DNA from: a virus
Lineage: Duplodnaviria; Caudoviricetes
Reading direction: 5' to 3' (one strand)
Virus record (IMG/VR): IMGVR_UViG_3300030419_005497
Span: 1 to 52,264 of that record
Length of the DNA: 52,264 nucleotides
Under the pieces are notes generated by a model. That model searched no databases, was not told the origin of the DNA, and worked only from the letters and a program-made list of their open reading frames with translations. This document shows, in pieces, positions 597 to 46,805 of this stretch. The translations under genes were made by a program, and so were the position numbers. Within the stretch, counting starts at the first letter, position 1; every line of letters starts with the position of its first letter.

Positions 597-806
597 TCAA
601 CTATAAAGATCGTATGCTTTTTTAAGTAAGGTGTCAAGATGTTTTTTTTCGTAATTATTATTCCTTAACATACCAGCCAGTTTAGAAAGTTCTATATACA
701 ATTCAGGGTCAAAATCTGCTCTTGCCACAAGTCTCCACTGTTTATCTCCATCTAGCTTTATCCAAGCAAGGCCCGGTTTTGCCCAAAGCATTATAGAGAG
801 GGTCAT
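597..806 (-). CDS. hypothetical protein
   Basis: 69-aa ORF with ATGA overlap to the upstream SprT gene. Confidence 0.55.
   Translation of the reverse strand: MTLSIMLWAKPGLAWIKLDGDKQWRLVARADFDPELYIELSKLAGMLRNNNYEKKHLDTLLKKAYDLYS
609..654 (-). promoter_or_regulatory. early sigma70-type promoter with TTACGAAAAAAAA upstream element
   Basis: TTGACA (637-632), 17 bp, TACGAT (614-609); TTACGAAAAAAAA upstream. Confidence 0.75.
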
Positions 807-1294
807 GCTATCTTAATCTCTCCCTTCATTCCTCTGGCGCACCTGTGAAGATAAGTCGCGCCCTTTTTAATTTTATTGGCGACTTTAGTTCCGACATGGA
901 CAGTTGCCCCACAACCTTTGCAAATCGTTTTGATCTTCTTATGCACCCTAGCTGGGGTGGTTTCGTAAGAGTGACAACGGGAGGTAGGCCCACCGAGAAT
1001 CCGCATCACCTTTTTCCAGAATCCATTATGACCACATCTGCCGTAATGTCGCGTTGCGATGATGTGACCCATTTCATGAGTGACGGTTCTTTTGATAAAA
1101 TCTTTTTTATACTTCAAAAGCAAGTCCTTGTTCAGTCGAACTTTATTCTGGTATGAAAAAGCCTGTCCCGCAGTACGACCACGCAGATCATAAAGAACGG
1201 TTGGCATTGGTTTACGCTCGATGCCGTAATGCTCTGCTTCCACATAAAGGCAGCGTTTGATTTCTTCGGTGACTTGTTCGTATAGCGTTTGCAT
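803..1294 (-). CDS. sprT: SprT-family zinc metalloprotease with C-terminal Zn ribbon
   Basis: LRGRTAGQA, THEMGH (HExxH), HNGFWKKVM, CHSY, CKGC...C motifs. Confidence 0.85.
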   Translation of the reverse strand: MQTLYEQVTEEIKRCLYVEAEHYGIERKPMPTVLYDLRGRTAGQAFSYQNKVRLNKDLLLKYKKDFIKRTVTHEMGHIIATRHYGRCGHNGFWKKVMRILGGPTSRCHSYETTPARVHKKIKTICKGCGATVHVGTKVANKIKKGATYLHRCARGMKGEIKIA

Positions 1295-1300
1295 GGTTTT

Positions 1301-1329
1301 TTTATATCAAAATTAAAGATCGCCGTCAA
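1301..1329 (-). promoter_or_regulatory. sigma70-type promoter giving a probably leaderless sprT mRNA
   Basis: TTGACG (1329-1324), 17 bp, TATAAA (1306-1301); ATG at 1294. Confidence 0.7.
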
Positions 1330-1444
1330 GGTTTTTCTTATGTTTTTCTTTTCTATTATAAGAACCCTTGCCCTTCTTTGTCCTATGCTCACGGGATGCA
1401 CTTCCCATGAAGCCTTCGGGGTTTACTCTCGCTTTTGTTTTCAT
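1313..1444 (-). CDS. arfA: ArfA-like alternative ribosome rescue factor (43 aa, not in ORF track)
   Basis: MKTKARVNPEGFMGSASREHRTKKGKGSYNRKEKHKKNLDGDL*; contains KKGKGSYxRKxKH, the hallmark motif of E. coli ArfA; own promoter directly upstream. Confidence 0.65.
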   Translation of the reverse strand: MKTKARVNPEGFMGSASREHRTKKGKGSYNRKEKHKKNLDGDL

Positions 1445-1450
1445 GTGTTT

Positions 1451-1494
1451 ATTAAACACTAAAAAAGACTTTAGTACAAGGATTATTTTCGTAA
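1451..1494 (-). promoter_or_regulatory. early promoter with TTACGAAAATAAT element (leaderless arfA-like mRNA)
   Basis: TTGTAC (1479-1474), 17 bp, TTTAAT (1456-1451); ATG at 1444. Confidence 0.6.
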
Positions 1495-1506
1495 GTTATT
1501 CACACG

Positions 1507-1542
1507 TTTAGGGTCAATTACATACACTATTCAGGGTCGAAA
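1507..1542 (+). repeat. left copy of ~36-bp imperfect direct repeat with two AGGGTCRA motifs
   Basis: tttagggtcaattacatacactattcagggtcgaaa versus 2782-2818 tttagggtcaatatacacacactatttagggtcgaaa. Confidence 0.85.
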
Positions 1543-1771
1543 TTTTGAAAAAGTCCCTTTGGAAAATTATAACATGATTTTGTTTCGTATGTCAACACTA
1601 TTTTACTAACAAAAAAAGCCCTTGTTGTTAATAAGTTTATATTGACTATTAAATAAAAGTATGATCCGCGATACGAAAAAAAGTTTTCAAATAATGAAAA
1701 AAAAGCTTGGCATGAAAAGAATCTATGATAAGATTGATCTCAGTTAAGGGAATTACAAACCACTAAACATT

Positions 1772-2695
1772 ATGCCAAAAATAATAAATCAAACTACTGA
1801 CTACGACTACGAAGTGACTACCCGTCCTTTGTACGACCTCACCCCTGAGCAAGTCACTTTGCTTCAGGACAATGACGCTGATGCCACTTTTGCTGGTGTC
1901 TACGGCAACTTCCGCGAAGATGTAGATTCTGCCTTGGGCATTGTCACTGAGCGTTACGCCCTAGTTCAAAACTCTGAAGTAGTAGGAAACATCGAGGAAT
2001 CTTTAGATCGCCGTGGACTGTTGGACATGGTTGAAAAGGATTTCAATGTAGTTGACTACGGCAAGCGTTTCTACGCTCGTTACAGCATCAAGAATCCCAA
2101 GTCTGAATTCAACTTCACCCCTGCAAAGGGCGACAATGTTGGAGTCAGTTTCACCTTTCAAAATAGCTTTGATTGCACAAAGCGTTTGAATGTGGCTCTT
2201 GGTTTCTTGCGCTTGGTTTGCACCAACGGCATGACTTCACTCTCTAAACAGTACGAAGTCAATTTCCGCCACCAAAACGGAATCAATGTTGGAGCAATCG
2301 GTGACGGCATCGACGCTGCACTGGACAAGCTCACCGACCAGACAAAGGTATTCCAGCGTCTCGCAAATACCGGAATCGACCATGAGAAGGGTTTGAACAT
2401 CCTTGAAAACCTCACCAAGAAAAAGGTGATCTCTGGCGCGGTACGCGATAACATCGCTGCAATCTGGAACGCGCAAGCTCAAGACGAAACCATTCACGAT
2501 GGTTTGGACAGGGATCGCAACCTGTGGAACCTCTACAACGCCGCGACTCAGCATATCACTCGCGTGATCGAGCCAAAGCGTTTCGAGCAAGCCTCCCGAC
2601 TCAGCGGGTCGATCCTGTCGGCCTTTGATCGGGCGGCGACCACTAAAAAGTTCTTGACTGACATCACCCAAGAGGCTAAAGTCGAGAACAACTAG
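1772..2695 (+). CDS. DUF932/DUF945-family phage protein
   Basis: LGIVTERYALVQN, NSFD...RLVCTNGM and NLWNLYNAAT motifs; only + strand gene in the early region. Confidence 0.85.
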   Translation: MPKIINQTTDYDYEVTTRPLYDLTPEQVTLLQDNDADATFAGVYGNFREDVDSALGIVTERYALVQNSEVVGNIEESLDRRGLLDMVEKDFNVVDYGKRFYARYSIKNPKSEFNFTPAKGDNVGVSFTFQNSFDCTKRLNVALGFLRLVCTNGMTSLSKQYEVNFRHQNGINVGAIGDGIDAALDKLTDQTKVFQRLANTGIDHEKGLNILENLTKKKVISGAVRDNIAAIWNAQAQDETIHDGLDRDRNLWNLYNAATQHITRVIEPKRFEQASRLSGSILSAFDRAATTKKFLTDITQEAKVENN

Positions 2696-2735
2696 GGGGA
2701 GCGATCTCCTAGTTTTTTGTACTGCTCATAACATT

Positions 2736-2769
2736 GGGGAGGGGGTCGAAAGATCCCCTCTTCTTTTTG
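2736..2769 (+). terminator. intrinsic terminator
   Basis: gggagggggtc-GAAA-gatcccctcttc followed by ttttt. Confidence 0.85.
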
Positions 2770-2781
2770 TCTAAAATTTTT

Positions 2782-2874
2782 TTTAGGGTCAATATACACA
2801 CACTATTTAGGGTCGAAAAATACTACGTACACGTACTATTTTTTAGGGTCGAAATTTAGTACGTACACGTACTA
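2782..2874 (+). repeat. right copy of direct repeat extended into a 3-unit TTAGGGTC array with an 18-bp palindrome
   Basis: AGGGTCRA at 2785, 2809, 2845; tacgtacacgtacta twice; tagtacgt-ac-acgtacta palindrome at 2857-2874. Confidence 0.85.
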
Positions 2875-2957
2875 CCTAGAGCCATTTTTTTTAGTATAAA
2901 AACCTTACGCATTTTTTCCCCCTTTATTTGGCCGAATCCTGAAAAGTGGGCGATTTT

Positions 2958-3314
2958 TTAATCTATGTAGTCATCACACTTCCATTCTAGAAGTTCAAGT
3001 ATATCTGAGAAGGTAGGAGTCGATGGTTTAAATTTTTTTGTAATCAAATCCTCAAGCTCACCCTTCTTTATTATTAGTGATGCCATATTACCAAAGCCAG
3101 TTTTATTTGATGCTATTATTTTTCTTTCTCCAAAATCTAATTCATAATACGTTTCACCCATGCACATTGATAACAATCCAGATTTATATTTAAAGTCAAC
3201 AAGGTAATTATCTGAGTGCGCTATCCAGTGTCCTTCATTCACCTGCATAGCAGAGGAGAAAACCATTCCCCCTCGCAACTGAGATCCAAACTCAACGTCC
3301 ACAAATTGCAGCAT
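2958..3314 (-). CDS. hypothetical protein
   Basis: 118-aa ORF overlapping the ruvB stop. Confidence 0.6.
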   Translation of the reverse strand: MLQFVDVEFGSQLRGGMVFSSAMQVNEGHWIAHSDNYLVDFKYKSGLLSMCMGETYYELDFGERKIIASNKTGFGNMASLIIKKGELEDLITKKFKPSTPTFSDILELLEWKCDDYID

Positions 3315-4275: not shown

Positions 4276-4563
4276 CTACCAGTCAACCTTATTCTTCTTG
4301 GGTAAGCTACTTACAGCTTCTTCGGTTGCCTCATCGTTCTTGGCATCGACGGTGACTTGGTTGTCCACAACGCTACGAGTTTTGTAGTCGGCGTTCATGG
4401 GCGATGTTTCTAGCTTCAAAACTTCAGCGAACTTCCTACTAATAGGAATCATCGCGTCAGAGCATCCCTTGTTGATCTTATTAAAAAGTTCGTCGGGCTT
4501 AACTAGAACAAAGCTGGTCGCTCCTTTGACCTTGCCTCTGTAATTTCCAGTTCTCTTACTCAT
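4276..4563 (-). CDS. hypothetical basic protein
   Basis: 95-aa ORF with own promoter TTGACA (4598-4593), 17 bp, TAACAT (4575-4570). Confidence 0.75.
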   Translation of the reverse strand: MSKRTGNYRGKVKGATSFVLVKPDELFNKINKGCSDAMIPISRKFAEVLKLETSPMNADYKTRSVVDNQVTVDAKNDEATEEAVSSLPKKNKVDW

Positions 4564-6123: not shown

Positions 6124-6354
6124 TCAAGCAATAAGTCTCTGTTTAACCTCGTAACACACCAACGAGTTGGGATCACGATAATTGGGATCACTGGGAGTGT
6201 TTTCTTCCATTACCTCATCGTGATAAAATTCCAACTGGTCTATTGCCTGTATCTCCTCGCTAGTTGCTGGCCCCTCTCTATAATCAAACGGATTCATATT
6301 GAGATTTAGCCTAGCAAGATTTAATACAATGCTTAATGCTTCTTTATTGTCCAT
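6124..6354 (-). CDS. small hypothetical protein, MxNKEA..IVL family paralog 2
   Basis: MDNKEALSIVLNLAR N-terminus; overlaps the rIIB stop. Confidence 0.7.
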   Translation of the reverse strand: MDNKEALSIVLNLARLNLNMNPFDYREGPATSEEIQAIDQLEFYHDEVMEENTPSDPNYRDPNSLVCYEVKQRLIA

Positions 6355-7210
6355 CGCTTAAAAGTCCTTTCACCAAGTCCTCTTTAGCTTGCTTGTAGCC
6401 TTCGTTGTAGCCTTGCTCTTTGCCAGAGTCATAGCCCTCATTGTAGTCGCTATCATCGTCCCAATCTGGATCTTCCTCTCCATCATAGTAATCGTCGGTA
6501 GCTTCAGTTTCGATAATGGTTTTAACCACTCCAACAACCTTATACTTCGCAGTACGCAACTTCTGGCAGTCGCAGTCATGCGGGACGCTAACAACGTCAG
6601 ACGGGTCGATTTGAACCGCCAATAAGTGACCTCCACCGGAGGCGTAACCATTGGCATACTCGTAGCTTCCAGCGTGGAAACCTTCACTACAACCGATGTT
6701 TGCATCGTCGCAGACGGTGTTTCGCGACATTTCGAGGGTTTGGCCGACAGAATTGTCGAATCTACCCGTGTGTCTGTCAGTGAAATTAGAATTCACTCCT
6801 TTATATGCAATAAAATCTCCTTCTGGAGTAATTGGCATATTCTTATGCTCTAAAAAGCGATAAAGCTCGCTTACAGCACGGCGGGAAGGGTTCTGCATCA
6901 GTTTGTCCAGAAAACGGATCAAACGCTTATACATTACCCCTTCAGACATACATCCGAGGATTTTATCGACCAGAACATTGTGAACTGGTTCGCCTTTGTA
7001 TAGAACTACTCCGCTTTCAACGGAAATGTTTCCATCGGTATAATCGACTACTGCTTTGCCTTGATCGAACATCTCTAGCAGACCATCGGTTTCTTCATTT
7101 AGCACTTTTTCCCTAATCTCTTTGAAAAGAGGGTGAGAATCAGTTGCTATATGAGTTTGAGAGTCCCAAAATACTGTGACTTTGGTATCTGTTATATTAT
7201 ATGCGTACAT
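6344..7210 (-). CDS. rIIB: rIIB-like protein
   Basis: L..NPS..AV.ELY.FL...PIT.EG.FIAYKGV, CS.GFH, V.IDP.DVVSVP.D...KLR..KY.V motifs; acidic tail with GYxEG repeats. Confidence 0.9.
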   Translation of the reverse strand: MYAYNITDTKVTVFWDSQTHIATDSHPLFKEIREKVLNEETDGLLEMFDQGKAVVDYTDGNISVESGVVLYKGEPVHNVLVDKILGCMSEGVMYKRLIRFLDKLMQNPSRRAVSELYRFLEHKNMPITPEGDFIAYKGVNSNFTDRHTGRFDNSVGQTLEMSRNTVCDDANIGCSEGFHAGSYEYANGYASGGGHLLAVQIDPSDVVSVPHDCDCQKLRTAKYKVVGVVKTIIETEATDDYYDGEEDPDWDDDSDYNEGYDSGKEQGYNEGYKQAKEDLVKGLLSDGQ

Positions 7211-7281
7211 TTTCTTTTATCCCTTTGTATTACAACCTTTAATAAAGCTCAGAGTAAATTTCCCCTTAATGCCTTAATGCC

Positions 7282-7476
7282 TTAACTGTTTTTAAGATTA
7301 ATGTATTCTACGGTTTCAGTCAAGCACTTTTTTTCGTTATTCTGCCTAAAATAAATTTCGTCGTTCATCTCTCTTATAGTGTCCAAAACTTCAATTCCAT
7401 CTATGTTTTTTTCTACAATCAAAAAATATCCACCAATTTTTTGATAATAAATAAACTTTGCCCCGTTCCCATCCAT
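7282..7476 (-). CDS. hypothetical protein between rIIA and rIIB
   Basis: 64-aa ORF with AAGGAG SD; its 3' end contains the rIIB promoter TTGACT (7323-7318), 17 bp, TAATCT (7300-7295). Confidence 0.6.
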   Translation of the reverse strand: MDGNGAKFIYYQKIGGYFLIVEKNIDGIEVLDTIREMNDEIYFRQNNEKKCLTETVEYINLKNS

Positions 7477-7537
7477 TTTAATCTCCTTTTACATTGGTCT
7501 AATTGTTTGTGTTTTAAAATTGTTTAAATTTAAATTT

Positions 7538-7578
7538 AGGGAGGCTCCCCCGCCAACTCCTTAACCGGAGAGCCTCCC
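7538..7578 (-). terminator. GC-rich hairpin after rIIA (probable terminator)
   Basis: gggaggctc...gagcctccc inverted repeat just downstream of the rIIA stop, followed by an AT-rich stretch. Confidence 0.55.
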
Positions 7579-7585
7579 GTTCACT

Positions 7586-9787
7586 CTACTTACCGTTTAG
7601 ATAAGCGGAGAGATACTTTACATCCCCTACTTCTATCCCGTGATAATAGTCATTCGGGTTCATGAACTTAATCATCGGGTATTCTTCAATGAGTTCATCC
7701 ACCTGTTGCAAGTACGGGTTCTCTCCATCAGTATCTTGCTCAGGTTTCATAATTTTTTCAACCTCGTCCCTATCGATACCAAGACGAGCAAGGCCGCAAC
7801 GTAGGTTACTGTAGTGATCTCTAGGGCTACGATTCACTTTCGCAGAATTCGCGGCATCAACTAAATCCATGTATAAATGGTTTTTGTTTTTTAGCTGGCT
7901 TCGCAAAGTATTAATAATCTCATCTTTTGCAATAATGAAATTAGCATGGTAGCGAATTTTATCGCGGTTGCACCAATCTACTGCATCTTCATAGGCGTTG
8001 TTTTCTTCGGCCCATTTTGTCACGATTTGAAAGGTGACATCTTTCAATGCAGTCCAACCCTTACCAAGTTTCTTTATGGCTGAACTTTTAACAGCATAAA
8101 CTTCATCTTCGGAAGGAATGTCCTCTACGACTTCACGCATAGACCTCAGATGCTTGAAATAGACTTGAGGTGTTTCACCATCAATTTTATATCGATTCAT
8201 TTCAATGAAAATTCCATCAGTCTTTTCATTTAGATCGCAGTCAACTGGTTTCCAGTAGTCAGAATCATTACCCGTTTCTCCTGCTGAACCGTCTCTAACG
8301 AATTTGAATACTTTCAGATTGTTTTTTGGATTAGTGGGAGTATAGGAGCGAGTACCACTTGTGGTACGCTTCCCAAAGTCCTCTGGGAGAGAAACCTCCG
8401 ACAAATTTTTAATTTCACAATCAACTTTTGTTTTATCTAAAAACTCCTCCATGCCGTTGACCATCTTGCCCTCATTGTTGGCGTAATGCTCTGGGCAACT
8501 AATAAGGTGAACGTCATTCCCTGCTTCTGCCTCGCTCACGCAACGAGCGTAGAGTCCACGGGGGTTGGGAAGATCATTGTAGTAAAGAACAGTGTTTGGC
8601 TTCACCGCAATGTTGCGAGTTTCAACTCTACGGAACTTTTGAGTGTTTCGAGACTTCTCATAGCGATAAACCTTGAGGGGGCTACTACGCAAGTCCCAGC
8701 AAGAGATATTGGCAGAGTCGATTGCTTGACCATCATAGTCCACCTTTTCCACGATTCGGGAAAGGGTGTAGTATCCACTTCCGTAATCAAAAAGCTCGCC
8801 ATAGAGCAGTTTCGCTCCCCAATAGGACTTTTCGTTGGCAAATTTCTCATGAATTTGCCCAACGATTTCCTCCTTAATCTTGAGCATCTTTTTTACTATG
8901 TTCTTAATCGTAACATCAGTATATTCCAACATCTCGCGAGAGGCGGCGACACTCAATTCCCCGATTTCAAATTCAATATGCAGACATTCGCTGAACATAT
9001 TCTCTAATTCCTCTGGGACGTTTTTGAGGTTACTCTTTTCAATCCGGTAAGCAACATTGCCCATGATCGCAACTGGCTTGTTGTCGGAGTAATAAGTAGA
9101 AGTATTCGATGTGTTCCACTCCCATTCATCCCCAGAAAGAATTGGATCTTTTTGATCTTCAAAAAAAGTTGGTCGGCCCTTTATGACGGGCTTAACCTTG
9201 AAGTAGCGGAAAAACTCTTGAGCCTTTTCCTCAAAGACATTTATATCGTCTGGCTCAACGGGAATAATAACTTCGATCCCGTTTTCCTCATTGGTATCAC
9301 TAACGCCAAGTAAATCGCACTGACCTACCTTACTTGGATCAATAATTGCATTGTAGTGATAGCACTTGCCATCGACGTATGACTTAACCATGAAACTATC
9401 GGAATAGGCAAAGGCAGACTTACAACCGATTCCAAACATACCGATTGCATCATTAGTTCCACGCTTGGTTGACTCACCGTATTGAGTGTAGATATTCCGA
9501 ACCTCATCAGTGGTCAAACCCTTGCCATAATCGCGAACCGAAAACTCAGTCAGTAATCGAGTAGGAAGCCCAATTACAATAGGTCTTTCGGGCTGACCTG
9601 TTTGAACATGAGCATCTACCGCATTGCAAGCATACTCACGCTGAACTGCTAAAATCTTGTCCGAATACATTGAGTTTCGGAGAATATCCAGAAGGTGAGG
9701 CAATCCACTTTCAGAGATTGCGAACGAGACGGATTCCTGTATCCCTTTTTGGGATAAGGCGTTTTCATTAATTGGAGTTGGTTTCAT
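7586..9787 (-). CDS. rIIA: rIIA-like protein with N-terminal GHKL/HATPase domain
   Basis: MYSDKILAVQREYACNAVDAH, VRDYGKGL, YGESTK, IGMFGIGCKSAFAYSDSF; MGNVAY and GEL...SRE.L.Y; upstream of rIIB. Confidence 0.9.
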   Translation of the reverse strand: MKPTPINENALSQKGIQESVSFAISESGLPHLLDILRNSMYSDKILAVQREYACNAVDAHVQTGQPERPIVIGLPTRLLTEFSVRDYGKGLTTDEVRNIYTQYGESTKRGTNDAIGMFGIGCKSAFAYSDSFMVKSYVDGKCYHYNAIIDPSKVGQCDLLGVSDTNEENGIEVIIPVEPDDINVFEEKAQEFFRYFKVKPVIKGRPTFFEDQKDPILSGDEWEWNTSNTSTYYSDNKPVAIMGNVAYRIEKSNLKNVPEELENMFSECLHIEFEIGELSVAASREMLEYTDVTIKNIVKKMLKIKEEIVGQIHEKFANEKSYWGAKLLYGELFDYGSGYYTLSRIVEKVDYDGQAIDSANISCWDLRSSPLKVYRYEKSRNTQKFRRVETRNIAVKPNTVLYYNDLPNPRGLYARCVSEAEAGNDVHLISCPEHYANNEGKMVNGMEEFLDKTKVDCEIKNLSEVSLPEDFGKRTTSGTRSYTPTNPKNNLKVFKFVRDGSAGETGNDSDYWKPVDCDLNEKTDGIFIEMNRYKIDGETPQVYFKHLRSMREVVEDIPSEDEVYAVKSSAIKKLGKGWTALKDVTFQIVTKWAEENNAYEDAVDWCNRDKIRYHANFIIAKDEIINTLRSQLKNKNHLYMDLVDAANSAKVNRSPRDHYSNLRCGLARLGIDRDEVEKIMKPEQDTDGENPYLQQVDELIEEYPMIKFMNPNDYYHGIEVGDVKYLSAYLNGK

Positions 9788-12502: not shown

Positions 12503-12579
12503 TGGTTGGCCCGTAGGGACTTGAACCCTAAACCTTGGAATTATGAGTTCCCTGCTCTAACCGATTGAGCTACGGGCCA
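12503..12579 (-). tRNA. tRNA with CAT anticodon, probably tRNA-Ile2 (alternatively elongator Met)
   Basis: TGGCCCG TA GCTC..GAGC A GGGAA CT CAT AA TTCCA..TAGGG TTCAAGT CCCTA CGGGCCA A CCA; C4/C5 in acceptor stem as in Ile2; encoded CCA. Confidence 0.9.
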
Positions 12580-37761: not shown

Positions 37762-37959
37762 TTATCTTTTATTTTGGGCATTACTACTTTCTTTTAGTTC
37801 TTCATCTAGTAACTCTTTAACTAATTTTAAGTTGTGTGTAATCCAGCCGTCTCCGTCCTGAGAAATATCAGGATTGTTTTTAGATTCCATTTTGTCATCA
37901 ATGGATGATTTTTCTATTATTTGGTCTAGTAAGTCCACAGCTTGTTGAACTCTTTTCAT
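37762..37959 (-). CDS. hypothetical protein
   Basis: 65-aa ORF. Confidence 0.6.
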   Translation of the reverse strand: MKRVQQAVDLLDQIIEKSSIDDKMESKNNPDISQDGDGWITHNLKLVKELLDEELKESSNAQNKR

Positions 37960-41654: not shown

Positions 41655-41731
41655 TGGTACGTCCAGAGGGATTCGAACCCCCGACCCCAAGTTTAGAAGA
41701 CTCGTGCTCTATCCAACTGAGCTATGGACGC
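41655..41731 (-). tRNA. tRNA-Arg (TCT)
   Basis: GCGTCCA TA GCTC..GAGC A CGAGT CT TCT AA ACTTG..GGTTCGAATCC..TGGACGT A CCA. Confidence 0.95.
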
Positions 41732-46157: not shown

Positions 46158-46805
46158 ATGCCGAAAAAATTTTTTATTGGAATTGGAGGGGTAGCTGGAT
46201 GCGGGAAAGATACCTTTTATCAGATAACAAAAGATATTCTCCAAGAAGAGGGGATTTCCGTGGAAAGACTGTCATTAGCCGACCACCTTAAAGAAGATTT
46301 AAGGAAATTCATAATAGACAAGTTTGATATTGACCCGACCAACTGCACCCGCAACGAAAAAGACAAAATAAGACCCCTCCTCGTTGCCTACGCAAAACTA
46401 AAAAGGGAAACTTCAAGAGGTAGATATTGGATTGAAAAAGTAGATGATTACATAAAAACTTTATCTATTACAAAAAAGACTTTATTTATGGTTACGGATC
46501 TCAGGTTTAGTTTTTATGAAAAAGACGAAGTTTACTGGATTCAAGAACAAAAAAAGGGAATAGTTGTGCATTTAAGTAGATTTGAGGAGGATACAGACTC
46601 CGAAGGAAAAGCAATTAAAAGTACGATTACTCCAGCGAACGAGGAAGAAAGAATGCACGACCCGCTAGTTAAAGTTCGTGCTGATTACAAATTTAATTTC
46701 CCAACAATTGACGCCAATGATGATCAATTTATGAATAATTTAAAACCAAAAATTAAAAGCGCCCTTAATAAGATTAAAAAAGATCACGGACACTTTTTTA
46801 ATTGA
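46158..46805 (+). CDS. deoxynucleoside monophosphate kinase-like P-loop kinase
   Basis: IGIGG.AG.GKDT, LAD.LK, R.LL, W, VTD.RF...E. Confidence 0.8.
   Translation: MPKKFFIGIGGVAGCGKDTFYQITKDILQEEGISVERLSLADHLKEDLRKFIIDKFDIDPTNCTRNEKDKIRPLLVAYAKLKRETSRGRYWIEKVDDYIKTLSITKKTLFMVTDLRFSFYEKDEVYWIQEQKKGIVVHLSRFEEDTDSEGKAIKSTITPANEEERMHDPLVKVRADYKFNFPTIDANDDQFMNNLKPKIKSALNKIKKDHGHFFN

What the first reader, a model, noticed from the sequence alone, without database searches (positions are those of the whole stretch)
1313..1444. Unannotated, pre-truncated ArfA-like ribosome rescue factor under an early promoter
Seen: a 43-aa ORF missed by the ORF track carries KKGKGSYNRKEKH, has its own promoter and ends in a normal stop 8 codons after the motif. 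Known: E. coli ArfA contains KKGKGSYMRKGKH, recruits RF2 to non-stop ribosomes, and is made from a truncated non-stop mRNA so tmRNA destroys it unless trans-translation is saturated. Inference: the phage makes a short ArfA-like peptide that escapes tmRNA control, for constitutive rescue or as a ribosome-channel blocker during takeover. The N-terminal RF2-contacting part is divergent.
Basis: partly seen in the sequence, partly recalled or inferred. Interest (0 to 1): 0.72.

Follow-up and report, generated by a model that had tools for sequence, protein, structure and literature searches.

The report
Phage-encoded short ArfA-like rescue peptide
An uncultured marine phage carries a real, conserved 43-residue gene whose rear half copies the ribosome-binding tail of the bacterial rescue factor ArfA while its front half is a phage-specific module, so it most likely frees stalled ribosomes during infection, though this is untested.

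Summary
Window 1313-1444 (-) is a 43-aa ORF with KKGKGSYNRKEKH and a TAA stop 8 codons later.

It is a real gene:
- 26 related viral loci were found.
- A profile search found 78 representative clusters.
- pN/pS is 0.24 in frame, against 1.5-1.7 in four of the five other frames.

Likeness to ArfA is significant but partial:
- Pfam ArfA scores 24.8 bits (cut-off 25.5) and covers only profile positions 26-44 of 44.
- hhalign gives 95-96 % probability.
- The only solved chains matched are ArfA.
- The tail's invariant residues coincide with ArfA's.
- The ORFs stop where mature, truncated ArfA ends, with no hydrophobic C-terminus and no internal hairpin.

ArfA's N-terminal RF2-activating minidomain is missing. 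A phage-specific block (R6, G11, M13 invariant) takes its place.

In 19 of 23 loci a sigma-70-type promoter ends 6 nt before the ATG, which suggests a leaderless early mRNA. The window also has a perfect promoter 115 nt upstream.

Best reading (about 0.5): a constitutive rescue factor for non-stop ribosomes that depends on a release factor. Two cultured marine phages already carry genes annotated ArfA, but these are not this family and none has been tested. I rate it a new variant of a known kind.

The parts
1313..1444 (-). 43-aa ORF (stop included) encoding the ArfA-like peptide
   Evidence: Translation. Homologues. pN/pS is 0.239 in frame, with third-position variability 0.495 against 0.18.
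1385..1432 (-). Phage-specific N-terminal module, residues 5-20 (ARVNPEGFMGSASREH). R6, G11 and M13 are invariant in 45 diverse members.
   Evidence: Alignments A1 and A3. The broad profile does not align this part to ArfA.
1334..1384 (-). ArfA-type basic tail, residues 21-37 (RTKKGKGSYNRKEKHKK). It corresponds to E. coli ArfA K31-N47, the part that lies in the empty mRNA tunnel.
   Evidence: Pfam ArfA profile positions 26-44. hhalign results. PDB ArfA chains. The structural role comes from PMC5378476 passages.
1451..1479 (-). Proximal sigma-70-like promoter, TTGTAC (1479-1474), 17 nt, TTTAAT (1456-1451). It ends 6 nt before the ATG, which implies a leaderless or near-leaderless transcript.
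   Evidence: Sequence. It scores 8/12. The same layout is found in 19 of 23 unique relatives, 11 of them at 10/12 or better.
1566..1595 (-). Distal consensus promoter TTGACA-N18-TATAAT with a TG extension. It would give a leader of about 115 nt.
   Evidence: It is the only exact match in the window, with 0.04 expected by chance.
1495..1505 (-). GTGTGAATAAC motif between the two promoters. Similar words lie upstream of the gene in several relatives, in either orientation.
   Evidence: It is not enriched window-wide (13 matches against 13.1 expected at up to 2 mismatches). Its role is unknown.
1301..1329 (-). Promoter of the next gene, TTGACG-17-TATAAA, ending 6 nt before the ATG at 1294. It lies inside the 3' end of the peptide ORF.
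   Evidence: 10/12. Sequence.
803..1294 (-). Downstream SprT-like zinc metalloprotease gene (context only). It lies near the peptide gene in only 3 of 28 related loci.
   Evidence: Pfam SprT-like E 5.4e-13. NCBIfam match. Synteny.
1772..2695 (+). Divergent DUF932 gene, the most constant neighbour of the peptide gene.
   Evidence: Pfam DUF932 63.3 bits. Present within the fetched flank in 23 of 28 core-family loci.

Best explanation
The ORF encodes a small, intrinsically unstructured ribosome-rescue peptide of the ArfA/ArfT/BrfA functional kind.

Proposed mechanism:
- The basic tail (K23-K37: KKGKGS-Y-x-R-x-x-KH) threads into the mRNA tunnel. It can do so only when the tunnel is empty, so it recognises ribosomes stalled at the 3' end of truncated mRNAs.
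- The phage-specific block in front of it (A5-H20) then lies in the A site and decoding centre. There it recruits or activates a host class-I release factor, which hydrolyses the peptidyl-tRNA.
- The ORF has its own stop codon and ends at the length of mature ArfA. The peptide is therefore not made from a non-stop mRNA and is not destroyed by tmRNA tagging.
- It is made from host-RNA-polymerase (sigma-70-type) promoters, probably as a leaderless early transcript.

Likely benefit: it keeps ribosomes recycling when host or phage mRNAs are being cut, whether by host takeover or by RNA-cleaving defences, and it does so independently of the host's own back-up systems.

Shown: the gene is real, the tail is homologous to ArfA's, the ORF is stop-terminated at mature ArfA length, and the promoter layout is as described.

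Inferred: ribosome binding, use of a release factor, timing of expression, and the benefit to the phage.
For: Real gene:
- 15 close homologues among 17 candidates.
- 26 core-family loci among 32 confirmed viral loci.
- 78 representative clusters at E<=1e-3, 48 of them at <=1e-10.
- pN/pS is 0.239 in frame, against 1.5-1.66 in four other frames and 0.35 in one antisense frame.

Tail homology:
- Pfam ArfA E 1.5e-5, 24.8 bits.
- Family members score 19.4-29.1 bits, always on profile positions 25/26-44.
- hhalign against an ArfA alignment gives 94.7 % (E 5.6e-8) and 96.1 % (E 3.2e-9).
- A profile search of the PDB returns 6 distinct sequences, all ArfA, at E 1.4e-4 to 1.6e-3.
- The ESM Atlas nearest clusters are 40-48-aa proteins with PF03889 on 33-82 % of members.

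Matching conservation:
- The tail invariants of A1 are K23, G25, K26, G27, S28, R31, K34 and H35.
- Each of them falls on an invariant or near-invariant ArfA column except K23, which pairs with K33. The ArfA columns are K34, G35, K36, G37, S38, R41, K44 and others.
- They include the K-H pair that contacts 16S U534 in ArfA and BrfA (PMC6881298 passages).
- Some members read R-I-E-K-P-KKGKGSF, almost the ArfA R-V-E-K-N-KKGKGSY.

Length:
- 22 of 23 unique ORFs stop 4-10 residues after the KH position. In E. coli numbering that is 49-55.
- ArfA is active when cut at N47, and mature ArfA is 52-55 aa (passages).

Front block:
- The block ahead of the tail is even better conserved than the tail. R6, G11 and M13 are invariant in 45 diverse members. 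This argues for a specific partner beyond tunnel occupancy.

Other points:
- ArfT shows that a 40-aa protein with no ArfA-like hydrophobic patch can activate RF1 or RF2 (passages).
- No RF-1-domain gene was found in 4 of 4 related records, two of them at least 91 % complete, so a host factor would be needed.
- The AF2 model has no secondary structure and pTM 0.17. This fits a peptide that folds only on its target, but it is weak evidence.
- Promoters are described.
Against: - The protein falls just under the Pfam ArfA cut-off (24.8 against 25.5 bits). NCBIfam has no match.
- ArfA's N-terminal minidomain activates RF2 through I11, A18, L19, L24 and F25 (passages). It has no counterpart here, because only four residues precede the conserved block.
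- The tentative pairing A5-A18 / F12-F25 seen with the narrow profile disappears with the broad one.
- A short basic tail could arise by convergence.
- The same tail occurs inside unrelated, larger phage proteins (L028-L032). The tail alone therefore does not define a rescue factor.
- Nothing here shows transcription, translation, ribosome binding or peptide release.
- The host is unknown, so it is unknown which release factor would be used.
Confidence: 0.5

Rival explanations
1. A-site or mRNA-tunnel blocker. The peptide uses the ArfA tail to occupy vacant ribosomes or non-stop complexes but recruits no release factor. It thereby shuts out tmRNA-SmpB or ArfB, or shuts off host translation during takeover.
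For: - The tail is homologous to ArfA's.
- The RF2-activating minidomain is absent.
- ArfA A18T shows that a variant can bind with RF2 yet be catalytically dead (PMC5378476 passages).
Against: - The best-conserved residues (R6, G11, M13) lie outside the tail, and a plug would not need them.
- Occupying the tunnel would block phage mRNAs as well, leaderless ones included (inference).
- Per the eLife passages, ArfA alone was not seen on ribosomes without RF2.
Confidence: 0.17
2. A vacant-tunnel sensor with a different output. The tail anchors the peptide on stalled or idle ribosomes, but the front block recruits something other than RF1 or RF2. Candidates are a phage or host nuclease, a splitting or hibernation factor, or protection of ribosomes from a host defence effector.
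For: The same tail is joined to at least four other front ends:
- HTVC027P gp30.
- 120-165-aa phage proteins at L028-L032.
- L033.
- A Bacillota 99-aa ORF at L036.

This suggests a portable anchor with interchangeable effector parts. In addition, the front block has no detectable relative in Pfam, the PDB or NCBIfam.
Against: - No conserved partner gene encodes a recognisable translation factor. The constant neighbour is a DUF932 gene.
- All characterised short proteins with this kind of tail (ArfA, BrfA, ArfT) work through release factors (papers).
Confidence: 0.15
3. A basic nucleic-acid-binding peptide unrelated to the ribosome, such as a DNA- or RNA-binding early protein. On this reading the ArfA-like motif is convergent.
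For: - The peptide is very lysine- and arginine-rich and is predicted to be disordered.
- The similarity covers only about 20 residues.
- The tail also occurs in the middle of larger lysine-rich phage proteins.
Against: - The residue-by-residue conservation pattern of the tail matches ArfA's, including G-K-G-S, R41 and K-H.
- Profile searches of the PDB return ArfA and nothing else.
- hhalign gives 96 % probability.
Confidence: 0.08

Closest known systems
[quoted passage not shown]
   Same: - The basic tail has the same conserved pattern, K-K-G-K-G-S-[YF]-x-R-x-x-K-H, and the arginine five residues ahead of it (R18 / R28).
- The total tail length equals that of active, truncated ArfA.
- Both are small, unstructured proteins.
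   Different: - There is no N-terminal hydrophobic minidomain (I11, A18, L19, L24, F25).
- A 16-residue phage-specific block takes its place, with 3 extra residues in the narrow-profile alignment.
- The ORF ends in a normal stop codon. It has no hydrophobic C-terminus and no internal hairpin, so there is no tmRNA feedback.
- It is carried by phages, not by beta- or gamma-proteobacteria.
- The score is below the Pfam cut-off.
ArfT of Francisella tularensis (PMC6299226)
   Same: - About 40 aa, with a basic tail that has a KKGG/KGKGS-like arrangement.
- Stop-terminated and apparently not regulated through a non-stop mRNA.
- It lacks the ArfA hydrophobic patch yet activates release factors (passages).
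   Different: - The ArfT tail is KKGGSTNKK, not the full ArfA pattern.
- I did not have the ArfT sequence, so no alignment was made.
- Burroughs and Aravind place ArfT in a wide family of repeated charged helices (PMC6514570 passages), which this peptide does not resemble.
BrfA of Bacillus subtilis (PMC6881298)
   Same: - A release-factor-dependent rescue factor whose C-terminal part monitors the empty mRNA channel.
- It shares the Lys-His pair that contacts 16S U534 (passages).
   Different: - BrfA has two N-terminal helices that bind 23S rRNA, and it is made from a non-stop mRNA.
- The family profile found no solved chain other than ArfA at E<=10.
Phage genes already annotated as ArfA: Citromicrobium phage vB_CbaS-RXM g10 (PMC8953757) and Pelagibacter phage HTVC027P gp30 (PMC12753301)
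   Same: - Small proteins of marine phages carrying the ArfA-type tail.
- RXM g10 passes the Pfam cut-off at 29.6 bits, while gp30 scores 20.2 bits.
- gp30 is reported to be transcribed early and late (passage).
- RXM g10 lies among small early genes near ardA.
   Different: - Neither has the ARVNPEGFMGSASREH-type block.
- RXM g10 keeps the canonical P-x-F-R-Q-R of ArfA and a hydrophobic C-terminus.
- gp30 has yet another front end.
- Both papers only annotate the gene. In the passages I read there is no functional or comparative analysis.

Membership tests
ArfA (PF03889) | Score at or above the Pfam gathering cut-off (25.5 bits) | tested here: not met
   This protein scores 24.8 bits, E 1.5e-5. 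Of seven relatives or look-alikes scanned, P0075 (29.1) and RXM g10 (29.6) pass. P0002, P0006, P0014, P0083 and HTVC027P gp30 do not.
ArfA (PF03889) | Basic C-terminal tail with KGKGS, R41 and K44-H45 that fills the mRNA tunnel, reaching at least to position 47 | tested here: met
   K23-H35 aligns to K33-H45 with 12/18 identities. The invariant columns coincide. The tail runs 8 residues past H35. Actual binding in the tunnel was not tested.
ArfA (PF03889) | Mid-region strand (residues 25-29, with P23 and F25) that pairs with the RF2 domain-2 sheet | tested here: inconclusive
   R18 pairs with R28 in both hhalign runs. F12-F25 pairs only with the narrow profile and with low confidence, and not with the broad one.
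ArfA (PF03889) | N-terminal hydrophobic minidomain (I11, A18, L19, L24, F25) that contacts RF2 W319 and activates it | tested here: not met
   Only 4 residues precede the conserved block. Pfam aligns only profile positions 26-44 of 44. The broad hhalign run aligns only from A16 onward.
ArfA (PF03889) | Made from a non-stop mRNA (internal hairpin, RNase III site or terminator, hydrophobic unstable C-terminus), and so repressed by tmRNA | tested here: not met
   There is a TAA stop at codon 44. 22 of 23 unique relatives stop 4-10 residues after KH. The transcript fold has z = -0.64, and no terminator-like site lies on the coding strand within 700-1900.
ArfA (PF03889) | Recruits RF2, not RF1, to non-stop ribosomes and triggers peptide release | not testable with these tools
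   This needs in vitro release assays or cryo-EM.
ArfA (PF03889) | [quoted passage not shown] | tested here: not met
   The family sits on viral contigs. Of 25 pattern matches in one genome for each of 185,579 bacterial and archaeal species, only 3 were confirmed as relatives, and all 3 are MAG contigs. One of them has the phage synteny.
ArfT | Sequence likeness to Francisella ArfT, and activation of RF1 or RF2 | not tested
   No ArfT sequence was available from any call. Only its size and its KKGGSTNKK tail were read, in PMC6299226.
BrfA | Sequence likeness to B. subtilis BrfA (N-terminal helices plus tail) | tested here: not met
   A profile search of all PDB chains at E<=10 returned ArfA chains only. 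That BrfA chains are among those searched rests on the cryo-EM structure reported in PMC6881298. I did not check the file for them.

The most novel reading that the evidence does not exclude
The peptide founds a phage-specific class of constitutive rescue factors. An ArfA-type 'empty-tunnel anchor' is joined to a new A-site module (R-x4-G-x-M-G-S-A) that activates host release factors by a mechanism different from ArfA's minidomain. It may work with RF1 as well as RF2, and in hosts that have no ArfA. It would be made from leaderless early mRNAs to keep ribosomes turning over while mRNAs are being destroyed by takeover or by RNA-cleaving defences. More broadly, the anchor would be a portable module that phages and bacteria have joined to at least five different front ends.
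Probability: 0.35. Interest if true: 0.72.

Novelty: new variant of a known kind. Interest (0 to 1): 0.55.

Why it matters
Release-factor-dependent rescue factors (ArfA, ArfT, BrfA) are known only as narrowly distributed bacterial back-ups that tmRNA keeps switched off. A widespread phage family that keeps the tunnel-sensing tail, drops the feedback control and swaps the activating part would have three consequences.
- It would show that phages manipulate ribosome rescue directly.
- It would offer a natural minimal peptide for studying how a release factor is activated without a stop codon.
- It would point to ribosome stalling as a battleground between phages and RNA-targeting defences.

In print I found only two bare annotations of phage 'ArfA' genes (PMC8953757, PMC12753301). 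I found them through six full-text searches (and for ArfT). Subscription-only papers and supplementary files were not searchable.

Tried and rejected
- **Complex prediction.** The peptide (alignment A1) was folded with E. coli RF2. The result was no verdict: ipSAE 0.00 in two runs and the controls were not run. This is not evidence either way.
- **RNA evidence.**
  - One metatranscriptome run (X20) holds a single 167-nt contig at 1794-1960, inside the DUF932 gene, and nothing over the ORF.
  - Contigs cannot show absence, so expression remains open.
- **Cultured relatives.**
  - megablast of 700-2800, tblastn of the peptide and blastn of the ORF against 50,697 phage records all gave no match. 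BLAST's low-complexity filter may have hidden peptide matches.
  - tblastn of the DUF932 neighbour found only one weak hit, a Microcystis phage at 23 % identity.
- **Fused forms.**
  - The 'longer' search gave one protein (P0217), which looks like read-through of a stop.
  - The long representatives are mostly over-extended N-termini or unexplained C-terminal fusions (P0044, P0039, P0071), with no informative PHROG.
- **NCBIfam.** No match.
- **PHROGs.** Only weak tail matches to families of unknown function.
- **ArfA sampling.** PF03889 found only 2 of 201 genomes in the class of a MAG that holds a family-bearing contig. The ArfA alignment A2 is therefore mostly enterobacterial (10 of 12 rows), which limits the profile comparison.
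- **Hairpin or terminator in the mRNA.** None found: z = -0.64, and the two terminator-like hits in 700-1900 are on the other strand.
- **GTG start at 1459 (48 aa).** Rejected, because relatives begin at the MKTKARV methionine.

Full report
**1. The observation**

The minus strand of window 1313-1444 encodes MKTKARVNPEGFMGSASREHRTKKGKGSYNRKEKHKKNLDGDL followed by TAA.
- E. coli K-12 ArfA, read from NC_000913, contains KKGKGSYMRKGKH.
- BLASTP of the two proteins gives 12/18 identities over R18-H35 / R28-H45, E 2e-5.
- A GTG 15 nt upstream would give 48 aa, but relatives start at the MKTKARV methionine.

**2. It is a real gene**

The window is a 52,264-base virus record, estimated one third complete.
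- It has rIIA, rIIB, ribonucleotide reductase and a clamp-loader-like ATPase.
- Its best cultured rIIA relatives are Rhodobacter phage RcXuper and Phaeobacter phage MD18, at only 28-34 % identity.
- Four related records of 137-178 kb have no T4 Gp23-type capsid gene (where the control genomes did not ring either).

Homologues of the peptide:
- The word-indexed search gave 15 homologues among 17 candidates, 42-65 aa long.
- A scan of viral contigs gave 32 confirmed loci out of 59 pattern matches. Of these, 26 (L002-L027) carry the whole peptide. Five (L028-L032) carry only the tail inside proteins of 120-165 aa. One (L033) has another front end.
- A profile search of 1.84 billion representatives found 78 clusters at E<=1e-3, 48 of them at <=1e-10.
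- In one genome for each of 185,579 bacterial and archaeal species, only 3 of 25 pattern matches were confirmed as relatives, and all 3 lie on MAG contigs. L035 has the phage gene order.

Selection test over the 93-nt core in 29 loci (23 distinct nucleotide sequences):
- Mean pairwise differences per site are 0.179, 0.180 and 0.495 for codon positions 1, 2 and 3.
- pN/pS is 0.239 in the proposed frame. It is 1.5-1.66 in four other frames and 0.35 in one antisense frame.

Occurrence in nature:
- Five DNA runs from three studies, other than the possible source run, hold half or more of the sampled words of 600-3000.
- In the three that I laid, contigs at 99 % identity or more lie on parts of the stretch.
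- One run differs at 1397 and 1320. By my reading of the sequence, 1397 is a synonymous change in A16 and 1320 changes D42 in the variable end.

**3. How far it is ArfA**

Scores:
- Pfam ArfA matches at E 1.5e-5 and 24.8 bits, just under the 25.5-bit cut-off. It covers only profile positions 26-44 of 44.
- Five other family members score 19.4-29.1 bits, always on positions 25/26-44, and one passes the cut-off.
- hhalign of the 16-sequence family alignment against an ArfA alignment gives 94.7 % probability, E 5.6e-8, over 36 columns. The ArfA alignment has 10 enterobacterial rows and 2 others.
- With a 45-sequence family alignment, hhalign gives 96.1 %, E 3.2e-9, but only over A16-L39 against R26-G49.
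- The narrow run tentatively paired A5 with A18 and F12 with F25, with a 3-residue insertion. That pairing did not survive the broader profile, so I do not rely on it.
- The family profile finds six distinct PDB sequences at E<=10, and all are ArfA chains.

Conservation:
- The tail's invariant residues are K23, G25, K26, G27, S28, R31, K34 and H35.
- Each of them falls on a conserved ArfA column except K23, which pairs with K33.
- K-H is the pair that contacts 16S U534 in both ArfA and BrfA (PMC6881298, passages read).

What is missing is ArfA's N-terminal minidomain.
- According to the passages I read in PMC5378476, I11, A18, L19, L24 and F25 form a hydrophobic fold that binds RF2 W319 and couples tunnel sensing to RF2 opening. 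A18T kills activity.
- Here only four residues precede a different, strongly conserved block.
- Across 45 diverse members, the only invariant residues are R6, G11 and M13.
- This block has no relative in Pfam, NCBIfam or the PDB.

**4. 'Pre-truncated'**

- ArfA is encoded as 72 aa. It is made from an mRNA cut or terminated at an internal hairpin, which gives 52-55 aa.
- The full-length form is unstable because of its hydrophobic end, and truncation at N47 is still active (passages in PMC8012679, PMC6299226 and PMC5378476).
- The phage ORF ends at the equivalent of position 53.
- In 22 of 23 unique relatives the stop comes 4-10 residues after the KH position, E. coli 49-55. The exception, L006, runs on for about 100 residues.
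- The transcript from the distal promoter to the next gene is no more structured than shuffles (z -0.64).
- The inference that the product escapes tmRNA feedback is therefore reasonable, but it remains an inference.

**5. Promoters**

- A perfect TTGACA-N18(TG)-TATAAT lies at 1595-1566 on the coding strand. It is the only exact match in the window, with 0.04 expected by chance.
- More telling is what lies next to the ATG. In 19 of 23 unique loci, a -10 hexamer ends exactly 6 nt before it, 17 nt downstream of a -35 that is often a perfect TTGACA.
- Of these 23 loci, 14 score at least 9/12 and 11 score at least 10/12.
- The window's copy is weaker: TTGTAC-17-TTTAAT, 8/12.
- Transcription from such a promoter would start at or next to the A of the ATG, giving a leaderless mRNA. 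This is inferred from standard promoter geometry and is not shown.
- It would also explain the absence of a Shine-Dalgarno sequence.
- The layout is not peculiar to this gene. In 22 non-redundant loci it occurs at 52 of 783 first ATGs of ORFs of 40 aa or more, against 15 of 1491 internal ATGs.
- In the window it occurs at four of 633 ATGs, among them the next gene, the SprT-like one. That gene's promoter lies inside the 3' end of the peptide ORF.
- Only 11 of 44 larger ORFs in the window have even a loose Shine-Dalgarno-like word.

**6. Most likely mechanism**

The tail senses an empty mRNA tunnel as in ArfA. The conserved front block sits at the decoding centre and brings in or activates a host release factor. 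The peptide is made early and constitutively.
- ArfT shows that a 40-aa, stop-terminated protein without ArfA's hydrophobic patch can activate RF1 or RF2 (PMC6299226, passages).
- The related phage records encode no RF-1-domain protein (0 of 4).
- A plausible benefit is keeping ribosomes available when mRNAs are being cut. A comparative study of jumbo phages describes tRNAs and peptidyl-tRNA hydrolases in this light but does not mention ArfA (PMC7824862, passages).
- I put this reading at about 0.5. The rivals are in their own section.

**7. What is already known**

- Two papers annotate an 'ArfA' in cultured marine phages of Alphaproteobacteria.
- The first is Citromicrobium phage RXM g10 (PMC8953757, passages).
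- The second is Pelagibacter phage HTVC027P gp30, which is said to be highly expressed early and late (PMC12753301, passages).
- I read both genes. RXM g10 is a canonical-looking ArfA with P-x-F-R-Q-R and a hydrophobic end (29.6 bits). gp30 has the tail on yet another front end (20.2 bits). Neither belongs to this family.
- One family member also carries a JGI name of ArfA.
- The general idea is therefore not new, but it is unexamined. The stop-terminated design, the distinct front block, the size of the family and the leaderless layout are new as far as my six searches reach.

**8. Verdict**

- The gene is real.
- The tail is homologous to ArfA's.
- Membership in ArfA proper fails on the minidomain and on the mode of regulation.
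- The function as a rescue factor is likely but untested.
- It is a new variant of a known kind, with interest 0.55.

Noticed in passing
window 803-1294(-), 4276-4563(-), 37762-37959(-), 46158-46805(+); loci L002-L035: Sigma-70-type promoters end 6-7 nt before the start codon, so the mRNAs would be leaderless. This is common in this phage group. It occurs at 52 of 783 first ATGs against 15 of 1491 internal ATGs in 22 loci, and at 4 of 633 ATGs in the window. Shine-Dalgarno-like words are rare (11 of 44 larger ORFs).
   Followed up: partly
L028-L031 (165-aa ORF, e.g. L028:3692-4189), L032:1922-2302, L033:508-669: The ArfA-type tail (H-K-T-KKGKGSY-x-RK) also occurs in the middle of lysine-rich phage proteins of 120-165 aa, and on a different 45-53-aa peptide. 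Pfam ArfA gives 22.9 bits for the L028 protein. No PHROG with a known function matches.
   Followed up: partly
L036:2833-3132 (+), a 203-kb contig of a Bacillota MAG; also P0093: A 76-99-aa bacterial ORF has a beta-rich-looking front part, the tail KVHKTKKGKGSYTRKEK, and then a hydrophobic end (NTSLCFF...). The layout is like non-stop-regulated ArfA or BrfA. It may be an undescribed rescue factor of Firmicutes.
   Followed up: no
window 1772-2695 (+): A DUF932 gene (63 bits) is the constant neighbour of the peptide gene, present in 23 of 28 core loci. It is usually on the same strand just upstream, but here and in L014 it is divergent. It has no cultured-phage relative beyond one weak hit.
   Followed up: partly
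window 1508-1520 and 2783-2795 (+): Two copies of TTAGGGTCAAT(TA) flank the DUF932 gene. Contigs in three DNA runs match about 21-31 nt at 1526-1546 and 2824-2854, with 17 other letters between. These are probably related phages sharing only these intergenic words.
   Followed up: partly
L006:433-864: In this one relative the peptide ORF has no stop after the tail and runs on for about 100 residues. This could be a fusion, a lost stop or an assembly error.
   Followed up: no
window 6344-9787 (-); records G204-G207: rIIA and rIIB are present, yet no Gp23-type major capsid gene was found in four related records of 137-178 kb. The Gp23 control genomes did not ring, so this is weak. The lineage is not T4-like in the strict sense, and the host is unknown.
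   Followed up: partly
window 12503-12579 (-), 41655-41731 (-): The phage carries tRNA-Met(CAT) and tRNA-Arg(TCT). No other Rfam family reaches its gathering score in the window.
   Followed up: yes
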